From Malacoraja senta (taxonomy: Eukaryota): DNA of 64,000 nt. The position numbers and the translations under genes were made by a program. Below the pieces are notes generated by a model. The model was not told the origin of the DNA. It saw only the letters and a program-made list of their open reading frames with translations, and ran no database searches. The stretch's first letter is position 1; every line of letters starts with the position of its first letter. Positions 1 to 63,537 of this stretch are shown in pieces. The DNA lies in contig CM075990.1 in the NCBI GenBank assembly GCA_038087875.1, positions 15,006,001 through 15,070,000 on the forward strand. Reading direction: 5' to 3'.

Positions 1-1678
1 CCTATCCCCCACGCAAAGTTTAGAAGAATGAGTGGAAAAGCAAGGAACTGCAGATGCTGGAATCTTGAGCAGAACATGACGTGCTGCAGGAACTCAGTGG
101 GTCAGGCAGCATCTGTGGCGGGAATGGATTCAATTCAATCATACTTTATTGTTGCATGTACCTAGGTACAGTGAAATTCTTTGCTTATGCATACAATGCA
201 CCAAGTCCACAAAAGAGTCACCACATTTTATGGCACCAATAAAGTTACAAAAGTACTCATTGGAGTCATGTTGGAGTCCCTTTTCGTTTTGGGCATTCCT
301 CCCCCCCCCCCCCTTTTCGTTCTCAGCCACCTTCCTTTCCTCTTTGTTCTCTTCGGTCAACATTTTGGGTCAGAGCCTTTCTTCGGGCTGATTTGGTGAT
401 GTTTCAGGTCAGAACTTTTCTTCAAAAGATTGAGCGGTTTCATTGAAACTTACAAAATTATCGGACTGAACAGTTTCCCCTTGGTGTAATAGCTGGAATC
501 GGGGGGAAATAAGTCTGAAAATAAGGGGACAAGTTTCCTCACTCAAACACTGTTAAATCCCTAGCTGAGGGAACTCCCTGGTCGAGAAGTTAATGGAGGC
601 TCACTGATCCTTATCCTGATGAAGATTGATAGATAGTTTGATAGTAAGAGCATCAAGGGCTATGGGTTTAGTGCTGGATATTGATATTGAAAGTAATGGA
701 AAGACACAAAATGCAGGAGCAACTCAGCGGGACAGGCAGCATCTCTGGAGAGAAGGAATGGGTGACATTTTGGGTCGAGACCCTTCTTCAAATGTAAAGA
801 ATGATTTCTGATCTTACTGAATGGCAGGCGGGGGGTGATGGGCCGAATGGCCTCTTCCTTTTCTCGCGTGCTTGTCTTGCCATTTATTTAATTACATGGA
901 TCCTTGTTGTTTCTGCTATATTACATAAGTTACTACACTTTGAAAGTACTTAATTGGCGGTAAGATGTTTTAAAACACCTTGTTAAATAAGCTAAACTTT
1001 CTCTTATGGAAATAACAAGTATCAGTTGCTGTTTAAGTTAAACTAAAACAGGCGACTTGTATTCTGTAAAAGAATGTAGCATAATAATGAACGAAAGATG
1101 ACAGAAAACTGCAGGATTGATTACGCTTTTGACAATATAATGGATTTACACTTCAAGTGTTAAGTTTAATTTAATGCACTTTTTCTGAATTTCAGAGGTG
1201 GTTGTATGGATTTGAGAGAAAGTTAAGTACAACAGAAATTGTTGTGCATAACTGTGTGCAGAGCCAAGAACTGTTCACATACAGTTTGAAAGAAGAGTAG
1301 AGTTGGCCTTCGGAAAACATATTTTTGATTTCAGATTTTGATTTCCTTTGGAATGACCCAAATAAATGAACAATCAGAAAACCATTCTTGAGAAAGAGAC
1401 TCGAACCAAAATGTTGCCTATTCATTCCCTCCACAGACGCCACCTGACCCACTGAGTTACTACAGCACGGTTATTGTCTTAAGATTACAGCATCCGCAGT
1501 TCCCTTTGTCTCCAGAAAACCATTCAGCTAATTCAGAATTATAACAATATTCCAAATCGTGCTTCAACTTGTTGGAAAGTAAAGCCCAAAGGCGCAAATT
1601 GTTCAGAATTTTGTGAAGATCTTTGAATTGACTTTTGTAGAGTAAAATGGGATAACATAGAACTAGTGTGAAAGGGTG

Positions 1679-7550: not shown

Positions 7551-7733
7551 GTACACGAAAATGCTGGAGAAACTCAGCGGGTGCAGCAGCATCTATGGAG
7601 CGAAGGAAATAGGTAACGTTTCGGCCCGAAACGTTACCTATTTCCTTCGCTCCATAGATGCTGCTGCACCCGCTGAGTTTCTCCAGCATTTTTGTGTACC
7701 TTCGATTTTCCAGCATCTGCAGTTCCTTCTTTA
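7551..7733. mobile_element. Palindromic Penelope-derived mini-element
   Basis: About 75-bp inverted arms centred on TTTCG-GCC-CGAAA. 15-bp TSD ACACAAGATTAGAAG at 7536-7550 and 7734-7748. Confidence 0.85.
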
Positions 7734-10624: not shown

Positions 10625-10784
10625 AGACAAAAATGCTGGAGAAACTCAGCGGGCGAGGCAGCATCGTCCCCTATCTGTTTCGTTACCTATTCCTTCGCTC
10701 CATAGATGCTGCCTCACCCGCTGAGTTTCTCCAGCATTTTTGTCTACCTTCGATTTTTCCAGCATCTGCAGTTCTTTCTTAAAC
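10625..10784. mobile_element. Palindromic Penelope-derived mini-element
   Basis: Inverted arms AGACAAAAATGCTGGAGAAACTCAGCGG. 13-bp TSD ATTTTAATTTGGT at 10612-10624 and 10785-10797. Confidence 0.8.
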
Positions 10785-11788: not shown

Positions 11789-12940
11789 ATAGATACATAG
11801 ATACATAGAAAATAGGTGCAGGAGTAGGCCATTCGGCCCTTCGAGCCTGCACCGCCATTCAATACGATCTTGGCTGATCATCCAACTCAGTATCCCGTAC
11901 CTGCCTTCTCTCCATACCCCCTGATCCCTTTAGCCACAAGGGCCACATCTAACTCCCTCTTAAATATAGCCAATGAACTGGCCTCAACTACCCTCTGTGG
12001 CAGAGAGTTCCAGAGATTCACCACTCTCTGTGTGAAAAAAGGTTTTTCCTCATCTCGGTCTTAAAGGATTTCCCCCTTATCCTTAAGCTGTGACCCCTTG
12101 TCCTGGACTTCCCCAACATCGGGAACAATCTTCCTGCATCTAGCCTGTCCAACCCCATAAGAATTTTGTACGTTTCTATAAGATCCCCTCTCAATCTCCT
12201 AAATTCTAGCGAGTATAAGCCAAGTCTATCCAGCCTTTCTTCATATGAAACTCCTGACATCCCAGGAATCAGTCTGGTGAACCTTCTCTGCACTCCTTCT
12301 ATGGCTATAATGTCCTTCCTCAGATTTGGAGACCAAAACTGTACGCAATACTCCAGGTGTGGTCTCACCAAGACCCTGTACAACTGCAGTAGAACCTCCC
12401 TGCTCCTATACTCAAATCCTCTTGCTATGAAAGCCAACATACCATTCGCTTTCTTCACTGCCTGCTGCACCTGCATGCCTACTTTCAATGACTGGTGTAC
12501 CATGACACCCAGGTCTCGCTGCATCTCCCCATTTCCTAATCGGCCACCATTTAGATAATAGTCTGCCTTCCCGTTTTTGCCACCAAAGTGGATAACCTCA
12601 CATTTATCCACATTATACTGCATCTGCCAAACATTTGCCCACTCACCCAGCCTATCCGTCACCTTGCAGTCTCCTAGCATCCTCCTCACAGCTAACACTG
12701 CCCCCCAGCTTAGTGTCATCCGCAAACTTGGAGATGTTGCTTTCAATTCCCTCATCCAGTTCATTAATATAAATTGTAAATAGCTGGGGTCCCCGCACTG
12801 AGCCTTGCGGTACCCCACTTGTCACTGCCTGCCATTGTGAAAAGGACCCGTTTACTCCTACTCTTTGCTTCCTGTTTGCCAGCCAGTTCTCTATGCACAT
12901 CAATACTGAACCCCCAATACCGTGTGATTTAAGTTTGTAT
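11789..12940 (-). mobile_element. CR1-clade LINE (HER1-like), 5'-truncated RT C-terminus plus 3' UTR, frameshifted
   Basis: Encodes [33 protein letters not shown] and RGDLIETYK in frameshifted ORFs (12652-12966 and 12018-12818). Has an 8-bp (ATAGATAC)n tail. Confidence 0.95.
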
Positions 12941-26336: not shown

Positions 26337-26517
26337 AGGGCCTGTCCCACTTGGGCGATCTAATCTGCGAGTTTAGAAGAGTGTCTTCGACCTTCAAACT
26401 CGCAGCATGGTCGACACGTGGTCCTAGGAGGTCCTATGGGGTCGCTATTAACTCTCCTTCATGCTCGAAGGAAGTTCCCGAATACTCGCGGCCTCAGCTA
26501 GGTTGCGGAAAATTTTT
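26337..26517. mobile_element. Harbinger-like MITE, left arm, runs into a gap
   Basis: TTA followed by the AGGGCCTGTCCCACT terminus. Confidence 0.7.
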
Positions 26518-26717
26518 NNNNNNNNNNNNNNNNNNNNNNNNNNNNNNNNNNNNNNNNNNNNNNNNNNNNNNNNNNNNNNNNNNNNNNNNNNNNNNNNNNN
26601 NNNNNNNNNNNNNNNNNNNNNNNNNNNNNNNNNNNNNNNNNNNNNNNNNNNNNNNNNNNNNNNNNNNNNNNNNNNNNNNNNNNNNNNNNNNNNNNNNNNN
26701 NNNNNNNNNNNNNNNNN
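26518..26717. other. Assembly gap, 200 N
   Basis: Run of N. Confidence 1.
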
Positions 26718-28487
26718 CAATCCTTCTCCTATTTTTATGTTCGCATACAGTAGATCCGCGTGTTGGCTGACATTCCTGTGTACCCCTTCATCACCCGACT
26801 TGATCCCCATTTCATTATGTTTTTTTACTATTAGGAACCTCTGTTCCCTCCAGATCTGCTGGAAGCTCATCATTAAAGCTTTTTTTGGATTGGGTAAAAA
26901 TCAGTTCATTATCCATTGTCCACAAACTAGTTCACTGTTAAATGTGATATTAAGGAATAGATTTTTATTGTAATGCTGACTCTGTAGTGTATGCGGTATA
27001 ATGCTAAGCAAATGTTCCTAATAAATCTCTTTAACTGGCTTTAATTGCAAGCTAAGATGCATTCATCTTGCCGAACAAGGGAGTAATCGCCATTATCTGA
27101 GCATTTATCAAATCACAATAAACTTATAAATGCATCTTCACTTACACTGAGATTAACCGTAACTGAAGAATTAATCGCTTCTTTTTTCATTTGTTCTATC
27201 TTCATAATTTAGGGTTGAAAGAAACAAATCTCTATAATATTCTATCCATTCTTGGCAGCTGGTTTTCTCTCTTCCCTCTTCGCCACTGTCATTCCATCAA
27301 ATAAAATGTTGTTCTACACTGACCTTCCCACTCCCACCCTCCCTGTTATTGGCAGCTGACCATAGTAGGATAAGCTAATGCAGTAAATACATTGTCCGTA
27401 CTTTTATAATTTTGTTTTGAAATCTTTTATTTTTGTCTTTTTAAATGTTCAAGTTTTAATTTCTAGATGGACCGTTGCTTTATCTTCATTCACTCATTCA
27501 TTGGGGCTTTGATTAGTATCATCAAACAATTTAGTTTCAAACAAGTTAGGAACAATCTCCAGCTGATGTTGAAAGGCACCGATCCTTGGGTTGAAGTCCA
27601 TAGTAGTTATTTGTCCTGTCATCTTATGTGGTACAATATACAGAGCCATAAAACCACCAAAATGATTATTGCGATCTTGAATCATGCAAGAGGATTTCAA
27701 TGAGCTTTCTCAGATGTGTCAACATTGCTACGTCTTCAGACTGATTCAACTTGTCAAAGTGGATCCTATAGTAGCAATGTTGAGTTTTATTTCTTGACAG
27801 CCTCTACCGAAGTGTTCTGCATCATTGTAAAGTGATGAAAACAAAAATCTGTGGCATTCTAACTCCTTTGCAAGGTCTGTATACGTTGTAGGGAGGAGAT
27901 CAGAGCATAGTCCCTCATGCAGTATGAATAGCATGAGCATGATGAGTCGACAGCTTGGACGGACACCCACATCACTTTGGGCATATGGCATCCACCCAGA
28001 TGAAATTGGTGAATAAATCAGTGTTGAGAAGCAGAAATTACCATTGCAGTCCATGGAAAATGCTTCTCTTGATGTTATCAGACTTGTATCTGTCCTTTAC
28101 AACCAGAAAAGTTTTTTTTATTTTATAGTTTAGTTTACTTTAGGAATACTGCGTGGAAACAGGCCCTTCGACCCACCGAGTCCATGCTGACCAGCAATCA
28201 CCTGTACACTTATCCTACACATTAGGAATAATTTACAGAAGCCAATTAACCTACAAATCTGCATGTCTTTGGAATGTGGGAGTTCTCAGTGAAAACCCAC
28301 ACAGTCACAGGAAGGCAGCAAATCTACTGTTGTGCCACTGTGCCATCCTAGTTAGTTATTTTATTAGTTTGCAAGGGGAAATGTTTATTTATGCCTTTTT
28401 TTTACAGTTCTGTTAAAGCTTTTCCCATCAAGTTTTATGTTTCTCATGACATTCTTGTATTCAACTTTCACTTTCCCCATCAGTGAT

Positions 28488-28930
28488 CTCTGGGCAGTGG
28501 GCAGGTGCTATAGACCTGCACGGGAAGGTAGACGCTCCCGCACCCACGAGTATCGGGCAGATGGGGCTCGTCAGCCCTGGGAAAGGCAGTCCATCTAGGA
28601 GAGGGAAAAACTCTGATTTAAAACCTCCACTGCCTTGTGACCATATCCAGTCATGGAAAAGGCTCCAGGAGTAAAACCTCAAGAAAATCCGGAGTCGGAG
28701 CCCCTAAGGCAGTTCGTCGTTGTCTACAACCTCGCTCTGGCAGCTCGTGCGACGGCACTGGTGCCAAACAGTAACGGCCCTGCTGTTCCTTTGGATCGAT
28801 CAGTGACGTGGAGAGGGGGGACGTGCTGCATGGGCAACAGCCTGTCCTCCGTATGGACATCGCCCAGGCTTGCATCTGACCAGGATGCATCACCCATGGT
28901 CAGTCATGACCAAGGGGGGGCCTAGTACTA
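28488..28930 (+). mobile_element. Non-autonomous RTE-derived retroposon
   Basis: 10-bp TSD CATCAGTGAT (28478-28487 and 28931-28940). RTE 5'-UTR-like CAGCCCTGGGAAAGGCAGTCCATCTAGGAGAGGGAAAAACTC and a TAC-repeat tail. Confidence 0.7.
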
Positions 28931-29016
28931 CATCAGTGATTTAGTTCTCCTTTGCAAAGTTCTGAAATCATCAGATTTGCTGTGTTTTTTTTCAAGCATG
29001 GTATACATTTCCCTTT

Positions 29017-29207
29017 CTTCTTCTTCGTGGTCCATCTTGTTACAAATGTTGGCCTCGCTGTCATCGTCCGTCCTGAAATGGACGCAAGCTTCCGGCGACA
29101 ATCATTGGAAGCCATCACTTGTCGAAAATTGATGATGGTGGTAGCAGAATTAGCTCGGGATACTTCCAGTTTCCAGCCCCGCAACGTGGACGCTTCTGCT
29201 TGGGGCC
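29017..29207 (-). mobile_element. Short retroposon family C, full length (CPEB3-like ribozyme head, GAA tail)
   Basis: 12-bp TSD ACATTTC(C/T)CTTT at 29005-29016 and 29208-29219, (GAA)n tail, second copy at 18506. Confidence 0.9.
29143..29207 (-). ncRNA. HDV-like (CPEB3-like) self-cleaving ribozyme
   Basis: GGCCCC-A-AGCAGAA-GCG-TCCACGT-TGC-GGGGCT-GG-[P4]-CTAA-TTCTGCT. P1, P2, P3 and the 2-bp P1.1 all pair. Candidate catalytic C at 29153. Confidence 0.85.
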
Positions 29208-30296
29208 ACATTTCTCTTTAATTTACTGTCTCCTGATAGCCACAACTGATCCCTTCTTCTTGTTGAGCTTTTGTGCCATAAAGGGACCTTTATTATTTGT
29301 AACTATAGATTCATTCTTTAAATGTTGGTTGTTGGTTTTAACGATGTTGGCCGCTTCACCAGTGCGCTCTCAGATTACCCTGGTTTTTAGATTCTACTAA
29401 ATCAAATTAAGGTATGAAATTCTATCATTTTATGATCACTGTTCACTAAAGGTTCCTTAACTGCCAGATCATCAATTAACATTTTCTCCATCAATAAACT
29501 AAAATGGCCTAAAAGGGCACAAAGTGCTGGAATAACTCAGCAGGTCAGGCAGCACTCTGGAGAATATGGAAAGGTGATATTTTCAGGTTGAGAGTCCCTA
29601 CTTCAGATGGATTGTGGGGGGTGGGGGGTGGGGGGGGGGGGGGGAGAAAGCTGGAAAGGGAGGTAGCAGGACAAAGTATGACAGGTAAATGATAGAGAGG
29701 CAAGGTTTTTTTTGATAGGCAGATGGTGGGAACAAAGGTGTAGGAAGGAACTACAGATGCTAGTTTAAACCGTAGACACAAACATCTAAAGAAGGGTTTC
29801 GGCCCGAAACGTTACCTATTTCCTTCGCTCCATAGATGCTGCTGCACCCGCTGAGTTTCTCCAGCATTTTTGTGTACCTTCTAAAGTAACTCAACTGGTC
29901 AGACAGAATGTCAAGTTCCAGGAGTACATAATGCCCAGCTGTGCTCACTATGCAAACCATTATACCCATTTATTTTGATTTGTGCCATTTATTCACTTAT
30001 CTCATTAAAATTGTTGTATGCATTCAGTTTTACCCTGTTAACTATTTTGCTCCGATTTTCAGTTGAGGTCTACACCTACACTGTGCATTCCACAGTGACT
30101 TCTCATGCCCAAAGGTGTTTTTACCTTCAGTATCCAAACACATTGCCAAAAAGTCTGAAGAAGGGTCTTGACCTGAAACGTCACCCATTCCTTCTATCCG
30201 GAGATGCTGCCTGTCCCCCGCTGAGTTACGTCATCAGTTTGTGTCTATCCTCGCCTTGAAATTCCCAATCACTTTTTAATTCCTTCACCTTTTTGG

Positions 30297-34750: not shown

Positions 34751-35811
34751 CAAGTCAAGAATCAAGTTTCCTTTATTGTCATTCAGACCTTTCGGTCTGA
34801 ACGAAATGGTGATGCCTGCAGTCATACACAGAACCAATAATAACAAAACATACAATAAACACAAATTAAACATCCACCACAGTGAGTTCACCAAGCACAT
34901 CCTCACTGTGATGGAGGCAAAGTCTTAGTCTCCGTCTCTTCCCTCCTTGTTCTCCCTCTGCGCTGAAGCGATCGATCCAGGCCGAAGATGCCGCCCTCCA
35001 GTCCAGCGGACCTCCATGGAGATGTCGCCGCCGCCGAAAGCCGGAACGCCGTCTCCGCTCCGAGACGGCCCGCCACAGCATCAGCCCCAGGTCCCGCAGT
35101 CTCCGCTCCGGACCCCACTGCCCCAGCTCCAGACCCCGCAGTCCCCGCTCCGGACCCCGCTGCCCCAGCTCCAGGTCCCGCAGTCCCCGCTCCGGACCCC
35201 GCTGCCCCAGCTCCAGACCCCGTAGTCTCCGCTCCGGACCCCGCTGCCCCAGCTCCAGGTCCCGTAGTCTCCGCTCCGGACCCCGCTGCCCCAGCTCCAG
35301 ACCCCGTAGTCTCCGCTCCGGACCCCGCTGCCCCAGCTCCAGGTCCCGCAGTCCCCGCTCCGGACCCCGCTGCCCCAGCTCCAGGTCCCGCAGTCTCCGC
35401 TCCTGACCCCGCTGCATCAGCTCCAGGTCCCGCAGTCTCCGCTCCGGACCCCGCTGCATCAGCTCCAGGCTGCCGCCGAAAGCCAGAACGCCGCACCAGC
35501 AAGTCGGGCCACCGCTGCCTCAGCCCCGAAGACGGCCAGCCTCCCGTTGGTAAGTCCTGGCTGGCTCTGCCTCCGTAGCCTTGGAGTCGGTCGCAGGATG
35601 GAGTCGGCCAGCCCCGCCATAAGGCCTCACCGCAGACGGAGGCAAGGAAGGGGGGTACGACACGAAAAAGTCGCATTCCCCGAAGGAGGAGACAGAGAAC
35701 ATGTTTCTCCCCCCCTAACACAACCCAACAAACTAAAACTTAACAAAACAAGACAAAAAAAATAACAGAAAAAAGTAAAAACAGACGGACTGCAGGCGAG
35801 CCGCAGCCGAT
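34751..35811 (-). mobile_element. Nested non-autonomous non-LTR element with a GC-rich minisatellite
   Basis: CAAG-repeat tail plus TTTATTGTCAT like the Rex1-type copies. AATAT is duplicated at the flanks, and the host transposon resumes after it. Confidence 0.65.
35082..35469. repeat. 42-bp minisatellite, about 9 units (two diverged 21-bp halves)
   Basis: Unit AGCTCCAGGTCCCGCAGTCTCCGCTCCGGACCCCGCTGCCCC. ORFs across it show a 14-aa period. Confidence 0.95.
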
Positions 35812-36664
35812 TAATATATGAAACAATCTTACTTGGATGAACTGAAATTAAAGCTTATAATTAGTTAGTTCCCTAATTGTAGCTAATTACAAAATTCAAT
35901 TACTAGATCTAAACGTCTATCCATTTCTTAAGAAAAGGTTAACATTTTTAAATAGCCTAAGTGTCCAAATAACATTCACACAAGAATTCACAATATAATA
36001 TGATTTTTAAATCTCATTGTCATAAATTTATAGGCCAAATGGAAGTAATTTAGTGTTTAATTCCCGTAAATTAATGGCCATTTTAATCATCTTGCGAGTG
36101 GGTGTTTGTGGAACGCGATCGATTGGAACATTGCGGTTTGCAGTGAATTTAAACCCATATTGGCAGGAAAAACACTGCTGGTTCGTATGGGGCCCAAATC
36201 ACATTTTCGCAACGTGAAATTTTGATTAAAGTCATCCTAAGAAGCAAGTTTATGTGTAAAATTAACGACTTACCTTGTTTTGTCCCGTACTTGAGATCCG
36301 TTCCGTTGCCTGCGTTGACGGCGTTAGAAGTCGCTTTTTATTTTACTCCAGCACTGAAATTGTCCCGCGGTTTAAAAAAAAATATTCCGAGAACGGCAGT
36401 CGAAACGAATTTTCAGCATCAGGTAGAAGCCTGAGAAAATATATTTTGGACAGGCAGGAGAAAACGGCATTTTAATCCCGCCCCCCTCCTCAAAGGCGCC
36501 AAAGTCGCGCACATGGCCAGTGACAGAAGTGCAGCGCCGCTAAAGGTAAGTTTTGTAACATACCTACATTATGTTAAGACGTATGCATGCTGTTGCGATG
36601 TGATGCATACTTATTTTCCTCTACTCTTATCCCTGTGTTCTTTTTCCTTTCCTGACCATTTTAA

Positions 36665-37049
36665 TATAGAAACGTACAAAATTCTTATGGGGTTGGACAG
36701 GCTAGATGCAGGAAGATTGTTCCCGATGTTGGGGAAGTCCAGGACAAGGGGTCACAGCTTAAGGATAAGGGGGAAATCCTTTAAGACCGAGATGAGGAAA
36801 AACTTTTTCACACAGAGAGTGGTGAATCTCTGGAACTCTCTGCCACAGAGGGTAGTTGAGGCCAGTTCATTGGCTATATTTAAGAGGGAGTTAGATGTGG
36901 CCCTTGTGGCTAAAGGGATCAGGGGGTATGGAGAGAAGGCAGGTACGGGATACTGAGTTGGATGATCAGCCATGATCATATTGAATGGCGGTGCAGGCTC
37001 GAAGGGCCGAATGGCCTACTCCTGCACCTATTTTCTATGTATCTATGTA
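36665..37049 (+). mobile_element. CR1-clade LINE 3' fragment, same young family as 11789-12940
   Basis: Encodes IETYKILMGLDRLDAGRLFP...FFTQRVVNLWNSLP. Nearly identical to the reverse complement of about 11795-12180. Confidence 0.95.
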
Positions 37050-57106: not shown

Positions 57107-57286
57107 AGACAAAAGTGCTGGAGAAACTCAGCGGGTGAAGCAGCATCTATGGAGCGAAGGAAATGGCAACGTTTTGGCCCGAAACGTTGGCTATTTCCTT
57201 CGCTCCATAGATGCTGCTGCACCCACTGAGTTTCTCCAGCCCTTTTGTTTACCTTAGATTTTCCAGCATCTGCAGTTCCTCCTTAA
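57107..57286. mobile_element. Palindromic Penelope-derived mini-element
   Basis: Inverted arms around TTTTGGCCCGAAA. TTTTGAGTTCA is duplicated at both flanks. Confidence 0.8.
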
Positions 57287-59662: not shown

Positions 59663-59889
59663 GGGGTCAAGGAAAGAGCGTTCACATCGCGACCCTGCTT
59701 CCATGAATCTTTCCACCACCACGCGCAAGACAGACACCATTGTATGCAGATGCCGAGACACATGTTCAGCTCTGGCTGAACAACTTCTAATCTTGTGTGT
59801 GGACTCGACAAGAAGAAGACTACACTAATCCCATATAATTGAAAGATACATCATCACTGTATCCTAGTCCACGCACACTCATTCAATGT
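59663..59889 (+). mobile_element. Short retroposon family B plus 71 bp of transduced 3' flank
   Basis: 9-bp TSD TATAAAGTT (59654-59662 and 59890-59898). Element 59663-59818 ends in GAAGAAG. The span 59819-59889 matches the reverse complement of about 7445-7515. Confidence 0.85.
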
Positions 59890-62558: not shown

Positions 62559-63537
62559 ATAATAATAATAATAATAGATTTTATTTATATAGCGCTTTTC
62601 AGGACTCAAAGTCGCTTTACAATTGAGAGTCAGGAATAAACAAAACAAAATAGAGCAGTAAGACAGAGGGGAGGGGAACATGGGACTAAGGGTATGCAGA
62701 GGTGAAGAGATGGGTCTTGAGGCGGGACTGGAAGATGGTGAGGGACTCAGAATTTCCGACCGGTTGTGGGTGGGAATTCCAGAGCCTGGAAGCTGCCCTG
62801 GAGAAGGCTCTGCCTCCAAAAGTGCAGAGGTTTGATTTCGGAGTGGAGAGGAGACCAGCTGATGTGGATCTGAGGGACCGTGAGGGTTGGTAGGGGGAGA
62901 GGAGGTCAATGAGATAAGGGGGGGGCAGGTTGTTGAGGGCTTTGTAGGTGAGGACCAGGATTTTGTAGGTGATCCGGTGGGAAATGGGAAGCCAGTGAAG
63001 TTCTTTGAGAACTGGGGTGATGTGGTGCCAGGATTTGGTGTGGGTAATGAGTCGAGCGGCTGCATTTTGGACCAGTTGGAGTTGTTTGATGCTGCTGGAA
63101 TTGATTCCGAAAAGAAGAGAGTTACAGTAGTCCAGTCGGGAGGAGATGAAGGCATGGATGAGTCTTTCAGCAGCGGGGGGTGTGAGAGACGATCTGATTT
63201 TTGCAATGTTGCGGAGGTGAAAAAATGATGTTTTGACAACATGGCGGATGTGAGGCTCAACGGAGAGGGTTGAGTCAAGGATCACGCCAAGGTTGCGTGC
63301 CTGAGGAGATGGGGAGACAGTGGTGCCGTCGATAGTGAGAGTGGGGTTGTTAATTTTAGTGAGTGTTGATTTGGAGCCAATGAGGAGAAATTCTGTTTTG
63401 CTACTGTTTAATTTAAGGAAGTTGAGTTGCATCCAAGATTTGATGGCTGACAGGCAGGAGTTGATATGGGAGAGAGGGGGGTGGTGGGGGGACTTGGTGC
63501 TGAGATAGATCTGGGTGTCATCAGCATAGCAGTGGAA
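62559..63537 (-). mobile_element. L2-clade LINE, 5' truncated at YADD, with an open C-terminal ORF
   Basis: Encodes FHCYADDTQIY...NFLKLNSSKTE...RNLGVILDS...SSRLDYCNSLL...LQLVQNAAAR...HWLP...LKTHLF, stop at 62686. (TAA)n tail. Confidence 0.95.

What the first reader, a model, noticed from the sequence alone, without database searches (positions are those of the whole stretch)
29017..29207. CPEB3-like HDV ribozyme at the exact 5' end of a 191-bp retroposon
Seen: a 12-bp TSD brackets a GAA-tailed element. Its first 65 nt (minus strand) read GGCCCC A AGCAGAA GCG TCCACGT TGC GGGGCT GG AAACTGGAAGTATCCCGAG CTAA TTCTGCT. This gives a 6-bp P1 with G1.U, a 7-bp P2, P3, CC/GG P1.1 and a J4/2 cytosine (29153), with G1 directly at the TSD. 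Knowledge: HDV-family ribozymes cleave 5' of nucleotide 1 and head R2, RTE and L1Tc retrotransposons. As I recall the human CPEB3 ribozyme (AGCAGAAGCGUUCACGUCGC...AAUUCUGCU), this copy matches 18/20 and 9/9 nt, including the P2 helix, whose sequence the fold does not force. Inference: this is a mobile ribozyme family that may be related to the ancestor of the mammalian CPEB3 ribozyme.
Basis: partly seen in the sequence, partly recalled or inferred. Interest (0 to 1): 0.92.

Follow-up and report, generated by a model that had tools for sequence, protein, structure and literature searches.

The report
Ribozyme-headed mini retroposon, CPEB3-like
A 191-base jumping element, present in hundreds of copies, begins exactly with a self-cleaving-RNA motif that closely resembles the mammalian CPEB3 ribozyme, which suggests that ribozyme came from a retrotransposon.

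Summary
Window 29017-29207 (minus strand) is a 191-nt retroposon with an 11/12 target-site duplication and a GAA tail. Its first 65 nt can form every helix of an HDV-type double pseudoknot, with G1·U at the first base and a J4/2 cytosine at 29153.

- **Rfam:** of 4227 families, only the CPEB3 ribozyme model matches it (33.4 bits, cut-off 35). A near-consensus sister copy scores 37.5.
- **Copy number:** at least 810 copies carry the 46-nt head. In 30 of 30 copies examined, similarity starts at G1.
- **Partner:** the last 21 nt equal the 3' end of a 3.1-kb endonuclease/reverse-transcriptase LINE of RTE-like architecture in the same genome.
- **Other families:** that LINE, three further LINE lineages and a second mini element all start with CPEB3-like ribozymes (up to 64 bits).
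- **Covariation:** across these families P1, P2, P3 and P4 covary strongly.
- **CPEB3 link:** some copies are 78-85% identical to the mammalian consensus, including helices whose sequence the fold does not dictate.

Best reading: a non-autonomous, RTE-mobilised element whose 5' end is cut by its own ribozyme, belonging to a mobile lineage homologous to the CPEB3 ribozyme. Cleavage itself was not tested. The kind is known; the CPEB3 link was absent from the papers I could search.

The parts
29208..29219 (-). Upstream copy of the target-site duplication (AAAGAGAAATGT), directly abutting G1
   Evidence: 11/12 identical to 29005-29016
29143..29207 (-). 65-nt HDV-fold, CPEB3-like ribozyme; predicted cleavage 5' of G at 29207
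   Evidence: RF00622 33.4 bits; all pairs; covariation across families
29202..29207 (-). P1 5' strand GGCCCC (pairs with 29175-29180, G1·U)
   Evidence: 3 of 6 P1 pairs show compensatory change across families
29194..29200 (-). P2 5' strand AGCAGAA (pairs with 29143-29149 UUCUGCU); identical to the Rfam CPEB3 consensus
   Evidence: 4 of 7 P2 pairs compensatory across families
29181..29193 (-). P3 (GCG/UGC) enclosing L3 UCCACGU; C19 and C20 of L3 can pair with G34 and G35 (29173-29174) as P1.1
29154..29172 (-). J1/4 and a short, weak P4 hairpin (GGA AGUA UCC)
   Evidence: -1.2 kcal/mol; unrelated in sequence to the P4 of the other families
29153..29153 (-). J4/2 cytosine at the position of the catalytic C
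   Evidence: this column is at least 90% conserved in 84 aligned ribozymes ('C58' of the first row)
29027..29142 (-). Element body; folds as one long imperfect hairpin
   Evidence: -35.9 kcal/mol, z -2.66, 1 of 200 shuffles as good; no tRNA-like head
29017..29033 (-). 3' terminal motif and (GAA)n tail. Family consensus GACACGAAAAGAAGAAGAAGA equals the 3' end of the RTE-like LINE
   Evidence: 21 of 21 identical between copy L002 and the LINE in L058
29005..29016 (-). Downstream copy of the target-site duplication (AAAGGGAAATGT)

Best explanation
The element is a non-autonomous non-LTR retroposon (a 'mini-RTE', not a classical pol III SINE). It consists of a 5' HDV-fold self-cleaving ribozyme, a hairpin body and the 3' recognition end of an RTE-like LINE.

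Proposed mechanism:
1. The element has no recognisable promoter, so it is transcribed inside longer transcripts.
2. The ribozyme folds co-transcriptionally and cuts immediately 5' of G1.
3. The freed RNA is reverse-transcribed from its (GAA)n end by the LINE's endonuclease/reverse transcriptase at a nicked target.
4. The cDNA runs to the RNA's 5' end, so each new copy starts exactly at G1 between 10-13-bp target duplications and carries a complete ribozyme.

The ribozyme belongs to a family of LINE-borne ribozymes in this genome that is homologous in sequence to the mammalian CPEB3 ribozyme.

Shown here: anatomy, copy number, exact 5' ends, target duplications, the shared 3' end, helix covariation, and specific similarity to CPEB3. 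Inferred: cleavage, mobilisation in trans, and common descent with CPEB3.
For: **Family and ends**
- 810 genomic matches (392 + 418) to the 46-nt head at 2 or fewer mismatches; the reversed control gave 0.
- 38 of 40 scored full-length matches begin at query position 1.
- 30 of 30 fetched copies start GGCCCC-like after unrelated flanks.
- Target duplications abut G1 in 20 of 25 independent loci.
- In a DNA run of a related organism, 170 contigs break at the head with heterogeneous sequence beyond it.

**Fold**
- All pairs are present in the window copy.
- Across 84 ribozymes of six families, 94.0% of cells in P1/P2/P3 pair, against 40-55% when partners are slid. 200 cells have changes on both sides (0 of 500 shuffles reach this). 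Covariation score is 0.446 against 0.14 or less when slid.
- With P4 and P1.1 on 25 LINE-type copies: 87.9% paired against 32-46% slid, and 5 of 7 P4 pairs are compensatory.

**Partner**
- The last 21 nt are identical to the end of a 3.13-kb element with RVT_1 (E 3.1e-32) and Exo_endo_phos domains.
- That element also starts with a ribozyme at G1 right after its target duplication.

**RNA 5' end**
- In 8 of 14 other loci tested, a LINE ORF piece lies on the opposite strand at the G1 side of the ribozyme. One such structure is enclosed by a 10-bp target duplication. This is as expected if cDNA synthesis ran off an RNA ending at G1.

**CPEB3**
- RF00622 is the only ribozyme family among 4227 that matches these ribozymes, even at E up to 10.
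Against: - No cleavage or transcript data. No raw-read RNA run was available and contigs cannot show RNA ends.
- The window copy scores 1.6 bits under Rfam's cut-off. It carries two changes from the family majority within the ribozyme: a shorter J1/2 and a P3 C-to-U that gives G·U.
- P4 is marginal.
- The nested MFE is not better than shuffles.
- Within the family the ribozyme is not better conserved than the body (2.2% against 2.6% divergence), so selection is visible only between families.
- The partner LINE's own ribozyme differs from this one in P1, P2 and P4. Body similarity to the LINE's 5' region is weak (z 3.7, and one shuffle scored higher). The element is therefore not a simple deletion derivative of that LINE.
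- None of 3 full-length LINE copies examined has a fully open frame.
Confidence: 0.85

Rival explanations
1. The resemblance to the CPEB3 ribozyme is convergence. HDV-fold active sites have few workable sequences, so an unrelated retrotransposon ribozyme drifted to the same core without common descent.
For: Eickbush and Eickbush 2013 (PMC3774820, passages read) argue exactly this for R2 and HDV: active-site similarity can be convergent. For the window element itself the shared part is mostly core (P3, L3, J4/2) plus P2. P1 differs at several pairs and P4 is unrelated. Only 37 of 48 aligned model positions are identical (my hand count).
Against: - P2 is 7 of 7 base pairs identical to the mammalian consensus, although P2 varies freely among the sister families (4 of 7 pairs compensatory).
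- Sister LINE-type copies are 54/67, 52/67 and 51/60 identical to the consensus, including P1, P2 and the P4 stem CAGAUUC/GAAUCUG (hand counts).
- A metagenome contig copy is 52 of 55 identical outside distal P4.
- No other HDV-family model in Rfam matches at E up to 10.
Confidence: 0.2
2. The head is a dead relic. Copies start at G1 because transcription starts there from an internal promoter, not because of self-cleavage.
For: Cleavage was not tested. Within the family the head decays as fast as the body. L1Tc/NARTc show that one 5' segment can be both promoter and ribozyme (abstract of PMC3383444 seen).
Against: - No tRNA-like head, and no 5S, 7SL or tRNA model hit in the region.
- Six families keep the pseudoknot through compensatory changes, which a promoter would not require.
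- The autonomous LINEs start at the same structural position.
Confidence: 0.07
3. The element is mobilised by a different LINE than the 3.13-kb RTE-like family identified here, for example an unsampled lineage that carries the same GGCCCC-type ribozyme.
For: The ribozyme of the identified LINE differs in P1, P2 and P4. The head resembles another lineage more: the shared AUAGCAG(A/G)AGCG and the ACCAC that follows the ribozyme. A parent LINE with this head was not searched for, because every search returns the short copies first.
Against: The last 21 nt including the tail repeat are identical to the identified LINE. The lineage with the more similar head ends in (AAT)n, not (GAA)n.
Confidence: 0.2

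Closest known systems
Mammalian CPEB3 ribozyme (Rfam RF00622)
   Same: Same fold and a specific sequence match. P2, P3 (in the family majority), 6 of 7 L3 bases and the last 9 nt are identical. It is the only Rfam family hit.
   Different: - It is a dispersed retroposon head (810 or more copies), not a single intronic locus.
- P1 is one pair shorter, with three pairs flipped.
- P1.1 can form two C-G pairs.
- P4 is short and unrelated.
- The window copy scores below the curated cut-off.
HDV-like ribozymes at the 5' ends of RTE, R2 and other non-LTR retrotransposons (Ruminski et al. 2011; Eickbush and Eickbush 2010; cited in PMC7936874, passages read; the original papers are not held here)
   Same: The ribozyme sits at the exact 5' end of the element and is thought to free the RNA from a read-through transcript. 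The partner here has RTE-like architecture.
   Different: Here the ribozyme is of the CPEB3 sequence type. It also heads 177- and 191-nt non-coding derivatives.
L1Tc / NARTc of Trypanosoma cruzi (Pr77 / L1TcRz; abstracts of PMC3185411 and PMC3383444 seen)
   Same: An autonomous LINE and its short non-autonomous partner both begin with an HDV-like ribozyme.
   Different: - Different LINE clade and host kingdom.
- There the 77 nt are also an internal promoter, which is not shown here.
- No sequence relation was tested.
Minimal (P4-less) HDV-like ribozymes (recalled from the literature, not checked here)
   Same: The sister mini element, including the copy at window 59663-59819, lacks P4 altogether.
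   Different: The element of this finding keeps a small P4.

Membership tests
HDV-like self-cleaving ribozyme (fold family) | Nested double pseudoknot: P1, P1.1, P2, P3 (P4 optional) in the canonical order | tested here: met
   All pairs are present in the window copy. Covariation across 84 and 25 homologues supports P1, P2, P3 and P4. The one P1.1 pair tested, on the 25 LINE-type copies only, is invariant C-G, so it is uninformative.
HDV-like self-cleaving ribozyme (fold family) | G1 at the cleavage site closing P1 with a G·U wobble | tested here: met
   G at 29207 pairs with U at 29175. The same column pair is GU in 25 and GC in 35 of 75 distinct rows.
HDV-like self-cleaving ribozyme (fold family) | Catalytic cytosine in J4/2 | tested here: met
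   C at 29153. The column is at least 90% conserved in alignment A1.
HDV-like self-cleaving ribozyme (fold family) | Site-specific, divalent-ion-dependent self-cleavage giving a 5'-OH at G1 | not testable with these tools
   No raw-read RNA run was available. Needs a bench assay.
CPEB3 ribozyme, Rfam RF00622 | Covariance-model score at or above the gathering score of 35 bits | tested here: not met
   Window copy 33.4 bits. The near-consensus sister copy L002 scores 37.5 and LINE-borne relatives 43-64 bits.
CPEB3 ribozyme, Rfam RF00622 | Single conserved locus in an intron of the CPEB3 gene | tested here: not met
   810 dispersed copies with target duplications. The CPEB3 gene of this genome was not examined.
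Non-autonomous non-LTR retroposon dependent on a LINE | Many dispersed copies of uniform length with target-site duplications and a simple-repeat tail | tested here: met
Non-autonomous non-LTR retroposon dependent on a LINE | 3' end shared with an autonomous LINE of the same genome | tested here: met
   21 of 21 nt identical with the 3.13-kb LINE.
Classical SINE | Head derived from tRNA, 7SL or 5S RNA with an internal pol III promoter | tested here: not met
   ARAGORN finds no tRNA. No such Rfam family matches at E up to 10.
RTE clade (for the partner LINE) | Single ORF with N-terminal AP endonuclease and reverse transcriptase, about 3 kb, coding frame running almost to a simple-repeat tail | tested here: met
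RTE clade (for the partner LINE) | Placement inside the RTE clade in a reverse-transcriptase phylogeny | not tested
   No tree was built, so the clade name rests on architecture only.

The most novel reading that the evidence does not exclude
The mammalian CPEB3 ribozyme is a domesticated 5' ribozyme of an RTE-type retrotransposon lineage. That lineage, with its miniature non-coding derivatives, was recently mobile in this non-mammalian genome. It also occurs in other organisms, seen as two loci on four metagenome contigs. The 'mammal-only' ribozyme therefore has abundant outgroups, and its ancestral state and origin become reconstructable.
Probability: 0.6. Interest if true: 0.85.

Novelty: new member of a known kind. 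Interest (0 to 1): 0.7.

Why it matters
Ribozyme-headed non-LTR retrotransposons are known, so the mechanism is not new. Two points are new relative to what I could read.

**1. Miniature derivatives.** A short, young non-coding derivative has at least 810 copies, some identical to the family majority. It is little more than ribozyme, hairpin and reverse-transcriptase handle. This is a compact natural system for studying ribozyme-dependent retroposition.

**2. Relatives of the CPEB3 ribozyme outside mammals.** Bendixsen et al. [quoted passage not shown] This genome holds dozens of sequences that pass the curated CPEB3 model (39 of 59 scored candidates). They sit at the 5' ends of retrotransposons and resemble the mammalian sequence in helices the fold does not dictate.

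This turns the origin of a ribozyme implicated in memory into a testable retrotransposon-domestication hypothesis. It also supplies natural variants for structure-function work.

Tried and rejected
- **RNA evidence:** no RNA holder was listed for the stretch. The four runs laid are contigs only, which cannot show RNA starts. The table of molecule ends was empty.
- **Nested MFE of the ribozyme:** not better than shuffles. Set aside because pseudoknots are not modelled.
- **Body as a deletion derivative of the LINE 5' UTR and ORF start:** only weak similarity (score 22, z 3.7, best shuffle 26). Left open.
- **Protein Atlas on the LINE ORF:** gave only generic reverse-transcriptase/endonuclease clusters with few taxa recorded. 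No help on host or clade.
- **Earlier notes of this scan:** none for this genome.
- **Metagenome scans:** the first (22-nt pattern) found nothing. The second found 4 contigs, but the records are not held, so the flanks could not be extended. No LINE ORF and no target duplication within 600 nt for the one checked (script ended in an error after the first locus).
- **Papers not held:** Ruminski 2011 (PMC3308841), Webb and Luptak 2011 (by DOI and by a recalled PMC id). They may already discuss a retrotransposon origin of the CPEB3 ribozyme or chordate RTE ribozymes.
- **Literature searches that found no report of a CPEB3-type ribozyme in RTE elements, SINEs or fishes:**
- **Not attempted:** locating the CPEB3 gene of this genome, and finding a full-length LINE with the GGCCCC-type head.

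Full report
**Observation**

Read on the minus strand, the element runs from G at 29207 to the end of GAAGAAGAAG at 29017, a length of 191 nt. It is bracketed by AAAGAGAAATGT (29219-29208) and AAAGGGAAATGT (29016-29005). This target-site duplication matches at 11 of 12 positions, not at all 12.

- P1: 1-6 with 28-33, beginning with G1·U33
- P2: 8-14 with 59-65
- P3: 15-17 with 25-27
- P1.1: C19/C20 with G35/G34
- A cytosine at position 55, which is 29153

P4 is only a 3-bp hairpin with two possible outer pairs (-1.2 kcal/mol).

Rfam at gathering thresholds reports nothing in the window. A permissive scan finds the mammalian CPEB3 ribozyme model RF00622 over 29143-29219 at 33.4 bits (cut-off 35). 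The E-value is 3.1e-7 for the 431-nt scan and 4.5e-5 for the whole window. A nested fold is no better than shuffles (z -0.14), which says little for a pseudoknot.

**A real, young retroposon family that starts at G1**

The window lies in a 1.94-Gb genome whose organism I did not identify.
- The 191-nt query gave 1995 first-look candidates. All 40 scored matches are 92-100% identical. Of these, 38 begin at query position 1, one at position 2 and one at position 8.
- The 46-nt head of the family majority occurs 810 times (392 + 418) with at most 2 mismatches. The reversed control pattern occurs 0 times.
- In all 30 fetched loci the similarity starts at the GGCCCC, directly after unrelated sequence. 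Five of the 30 are segmental duplicates.
- Of the 25 independent insertions, 20 show a target duplication of about 8-12 bp that abuts G1. The script's anchor sat one base upstream of G1, so its printed lengths are one short.
- These copies differ from their majority sequence by 2.5% on average. One copy (L003) shows no differences. The sample is biased to the best matches, and the window copy's own row in that script is mis-anchored.
- In contigs of a DNA run from a related, coded organism, the element is held at very high summed depth. There, 170 contigs break at the head, with heterogeneous sequence beyond it.

The family majority has J1/2 AU and P3 GCG/CGC, so it is closer to CPEB3 than the window copy. 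Copy L002 scores 37.5 bits, above Rfam's cut-off.

**The fold is supported by covariation between families**

Searching the genome with RF00622 gave 56 matches at E of 0.01 or below among 59 scored candidates. Of these, 39 are over the cut-off and the best scores 64.2 bits. I fetched all of them and sorted them by eye into six families.

An alignment of 84 ribozymes (75 distinct) gives, for P1, P2 and P3:

| Measure | Observed | Control |
|---|---|---|
| Cells paired | 94.0% | 40-55% with partners slid 1-3 columns |
| Pairs with changes on both sides | 8 of 16 | not distinguishing: shuffles average 7.2 and 185 of 500 reach 8 |
| Cells with changes on both sides | 200 | shuffle mean 75; 0 of 500 reach 200 |
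| Covariation score | 0.446 | at most 0.14 when slid |

P2 alone shows AU, CG and UA at one pair, and GC or AU at three others.

On the 25 LINE-type copies, adding P4 and one P1.1 pair gives 87.9% paired against 32-46% when slid. Five of 7 P4 pairs are compensatory. P1 there is only 75% paired, because several copies have damaged 5' ends. The J4/2 cytosine column is at least 90% conserved. Within the 191-nt family the ribozyme decays like the body (2.2% against 2.6%), as expected for dead copies.

**Partner LINE and sister elements**

The top-scoring family heads a 3.13-kb element.
- One copy has a 934-codon frame with Exo_endo_phos and RVT_1 (E 3.1e-32) domains.
- The coding frame runs on into a (GAA)n tail.
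- That copy has an in-frame stop where two other copies read a sense codon. The other two have shorter frames. None of the 3 copies examined is fully open.
- In two of them an 11-12-bp target duplication abuts G1 of the ribozyme.

This architecture is RTE-like. I built no tree.

The last 21 nt of the 191-nt family (GACACGAAAAGAAGAAGAAGA) are identical to this LINE's 3' end, which makes it the likely source of the reverse transcriptase. Its ribozyme differs in P1, P2 and P4. Body similarity to its 5' region is weak. The short element is therefore not a simple deletion derivative.

A second mini element is about 177 nt long. It has a P4-less ribozyme and a similar GAA tail. One copy lies in this window at 59663-59819 on the plus strand (27.6 bits). 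The element has no tRNA-like head. Its body folds into one long hairpin (z -2.66).

**Independent hint that the RNA ends at G1**

I ran tblastn with the LINE protein against 14 loci of the other families. In 8 of them (L053, L054, L055, L057, L064, L069, L070, L035) a C-terminal ORF piece lies on the opposite strand, directly on the G1 side of the ribozyme. The ORF breakpoints vary.

In L054 the whole structure comprises the inverted first ~105 nt, an ORF piece and an (AAT)n tail. It is enclosed by a 10-bp duplication, TCTATTTCAG. This looks like 5' inversion by twin priming, in which the second cDNA runs off the RNA's 5' end. The junction at G1 fits an RNA that begins there. A second case (L055) has the same layout but no clear duplication. 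In L086 the ribozyme is followed in direct orientation by ORF residues 26-124.

**Relation to the CPEB3 ribozyme**

RF00622 is the only ribozyme family among Rfam's 4227 that matches these ribozymes, even at E up to 10. No other HDV-family model matches.

My hand counts of identity to the Rfam consensus, from G1 to the 3' end:

| Sequence | Identical positions | Source |
|---|---|---|
| Window copy | 37 of 48 aligned (P4 not alignable) | |
| L042 | 54 of 67 | |
| L056 | 52 of 67 | |
| L055 | 51 of 60 | |

L042, L056 and L055 belong to a low-copy, older LINE-type family of five copies that are 83-88% alike. Their identity to the consensus includes the P1 strands, P2 with one compensated pair, and the P4 stem CAGAUUC/GAAUCUG. 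The fold does not force these helix sequences, as the covariation above shows.

The window element shares with that family the J1/2-P2 string AUAGCAG(A/G)AGCG and the ACCAC that follows the ribozyme.

A pattern scan of metagenome contigs found four contigs representing two loci (pairs 98.6-98.7% identical).
- One locus scores 66.5 bits and is 52 of 55 identical to the consensus outside distal P4.
- The other resembles a family of this genome.
- No LINE ORF lies within 600 nt, and the records could not be extended.

The main caveat is the convergence argument of Eickbush and Eickbush 2013. It covers active-site bases, not P1, P2 and P4 together.

No RF00622 hit in this genome looks like an orthologous intronic CPEB3 ribozyme. 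The best hits are all retrotransposon heads, and only 59 candidates were scored.

**Mechanism**

See Best explanation. Self-cleavage, mobilisation in trans and descent are inferred. Everything else there is read from sequence.

**What is known**

Passages I read state that HDV-type ribozymes sit at the 5' termini of R2, RTE and other LINEs (PMC7936874, PMC7761336). They also state that cleavage at the 5' junction is shared by R4, L1 and RTE ribozymes (PMC3774820). L1Tc and its non-autonomous partner NARTc share one (abstracts). Bendixsen et al. [quoted passage not shown]

Eight full-text searches found no report of CPEB3-type ribozymes in RTE elements, SINE-like elements or fishes. The two most relevant older papers are not held, so prior speculation on a retrotransposon origin cannot be excluded. 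I recall such speculation but could not check it.

**Verdict**

The element is a new member of a known kind. Its value is as evidence that the CPEB3 ribozyme belongs to a mobile, RTE-associated ribozyme lineage.

Noticed in passing
window 59663-59819 (+): A second ribozyme-headed mini retroposon of a different family (about 177 nt). It has a P4-less CPEB3-like ribozyme (RF00622 27.6 bits) and the tail GGACTCGACAAGAAGAAG. In many copies of this family G1 would pair with C rather than U, unless the P1 3' strand is one C shorter.
   Followed up: partly
L058 197-3331 (G000:C1); also L059, L060: Full-length 3.13-kb RTE-like LINE with a CPEB3-like ribozyme at G1 (up to 64 bits). One copy has a 934-codon frame ended by an in-frame TGA where two other copies read GGA. 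About 76 further codons with a C-x-C...H...C motif then run into the (GAA)n tail.
   Followed up: partly
L053, L054, L055, L057, L064, L069, L070, L035: The ribozyme plus about 100 nt lies head-to-head with a C-terminal LINE ORF piece on the other strand, at varying ORF breakpoints. L054 is enclosed by the 10-bp duplication TCTATTTCAG. This looks like twin-priming 5' inversions whose junction is the RNA 5' end at G1.
   Followed up: partly
L102/L103 and L101/L104 (metagenome contigs): Two loci from unknown eukaryote(s), each seen in two assemblies, carry CPEB3-like ribozymes (66.5 and 51-52 bits). The first matches the mammalian consensus at 52 of 55 positions outside distal P4 and has no LINE ORF within 560 nt downstream.
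   Followed up: partly
L041 about 1397-1540 (minus-strand orientation): Six occurrences of the 15-nt ribozyme core at 25-26-nt spacing, just upstream of and including a LINE head. This is a tandem partial duplication of the ribozyme's 5' half.
   Followed up: no
L096 about 395-415: A copy of the 191-nt family whose head is preceded by a run of at least 16 G that replaces part of the P1 5' strand.
   Followed up: no
window 28700-28942: Another very high-copy repeat about 75 nt from the element's tail. Its summed contig depth is comparable to that of the element in four runs.
   Followed up: no
window 7567-7683, 10640-10731, 57124-57229: Palindromic hairpin repeats that hit several microRNA-precursor models on both strands, well below their cut-offs (for example MIR1507 at 45.9 bits against 73). 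They look like inverted-repeat (MITE-like) elements, not microRNA genes.
   Followed up: no
window 34866-35721 and about 26500-26750: A GC-rich tandem repeat that is open in several frames on both strands (repeated GPERRLRDLELGQR-like units). Separately, an assembly gap (run of N) sits near 26.5-26.75 kb.
   Followed up: no
window 12018-12818 (-), 36513-36956 (+), 62686-63432 (-): Fragments of other LINE reverse-transcriptase C-terminal regions (…LEFRRLRGDLIETYKIL…). I recall such motifs from cartilaginous-fish CR1/L2-type LINEs. This was not tested, and the host was not identified.
   Followed up: no
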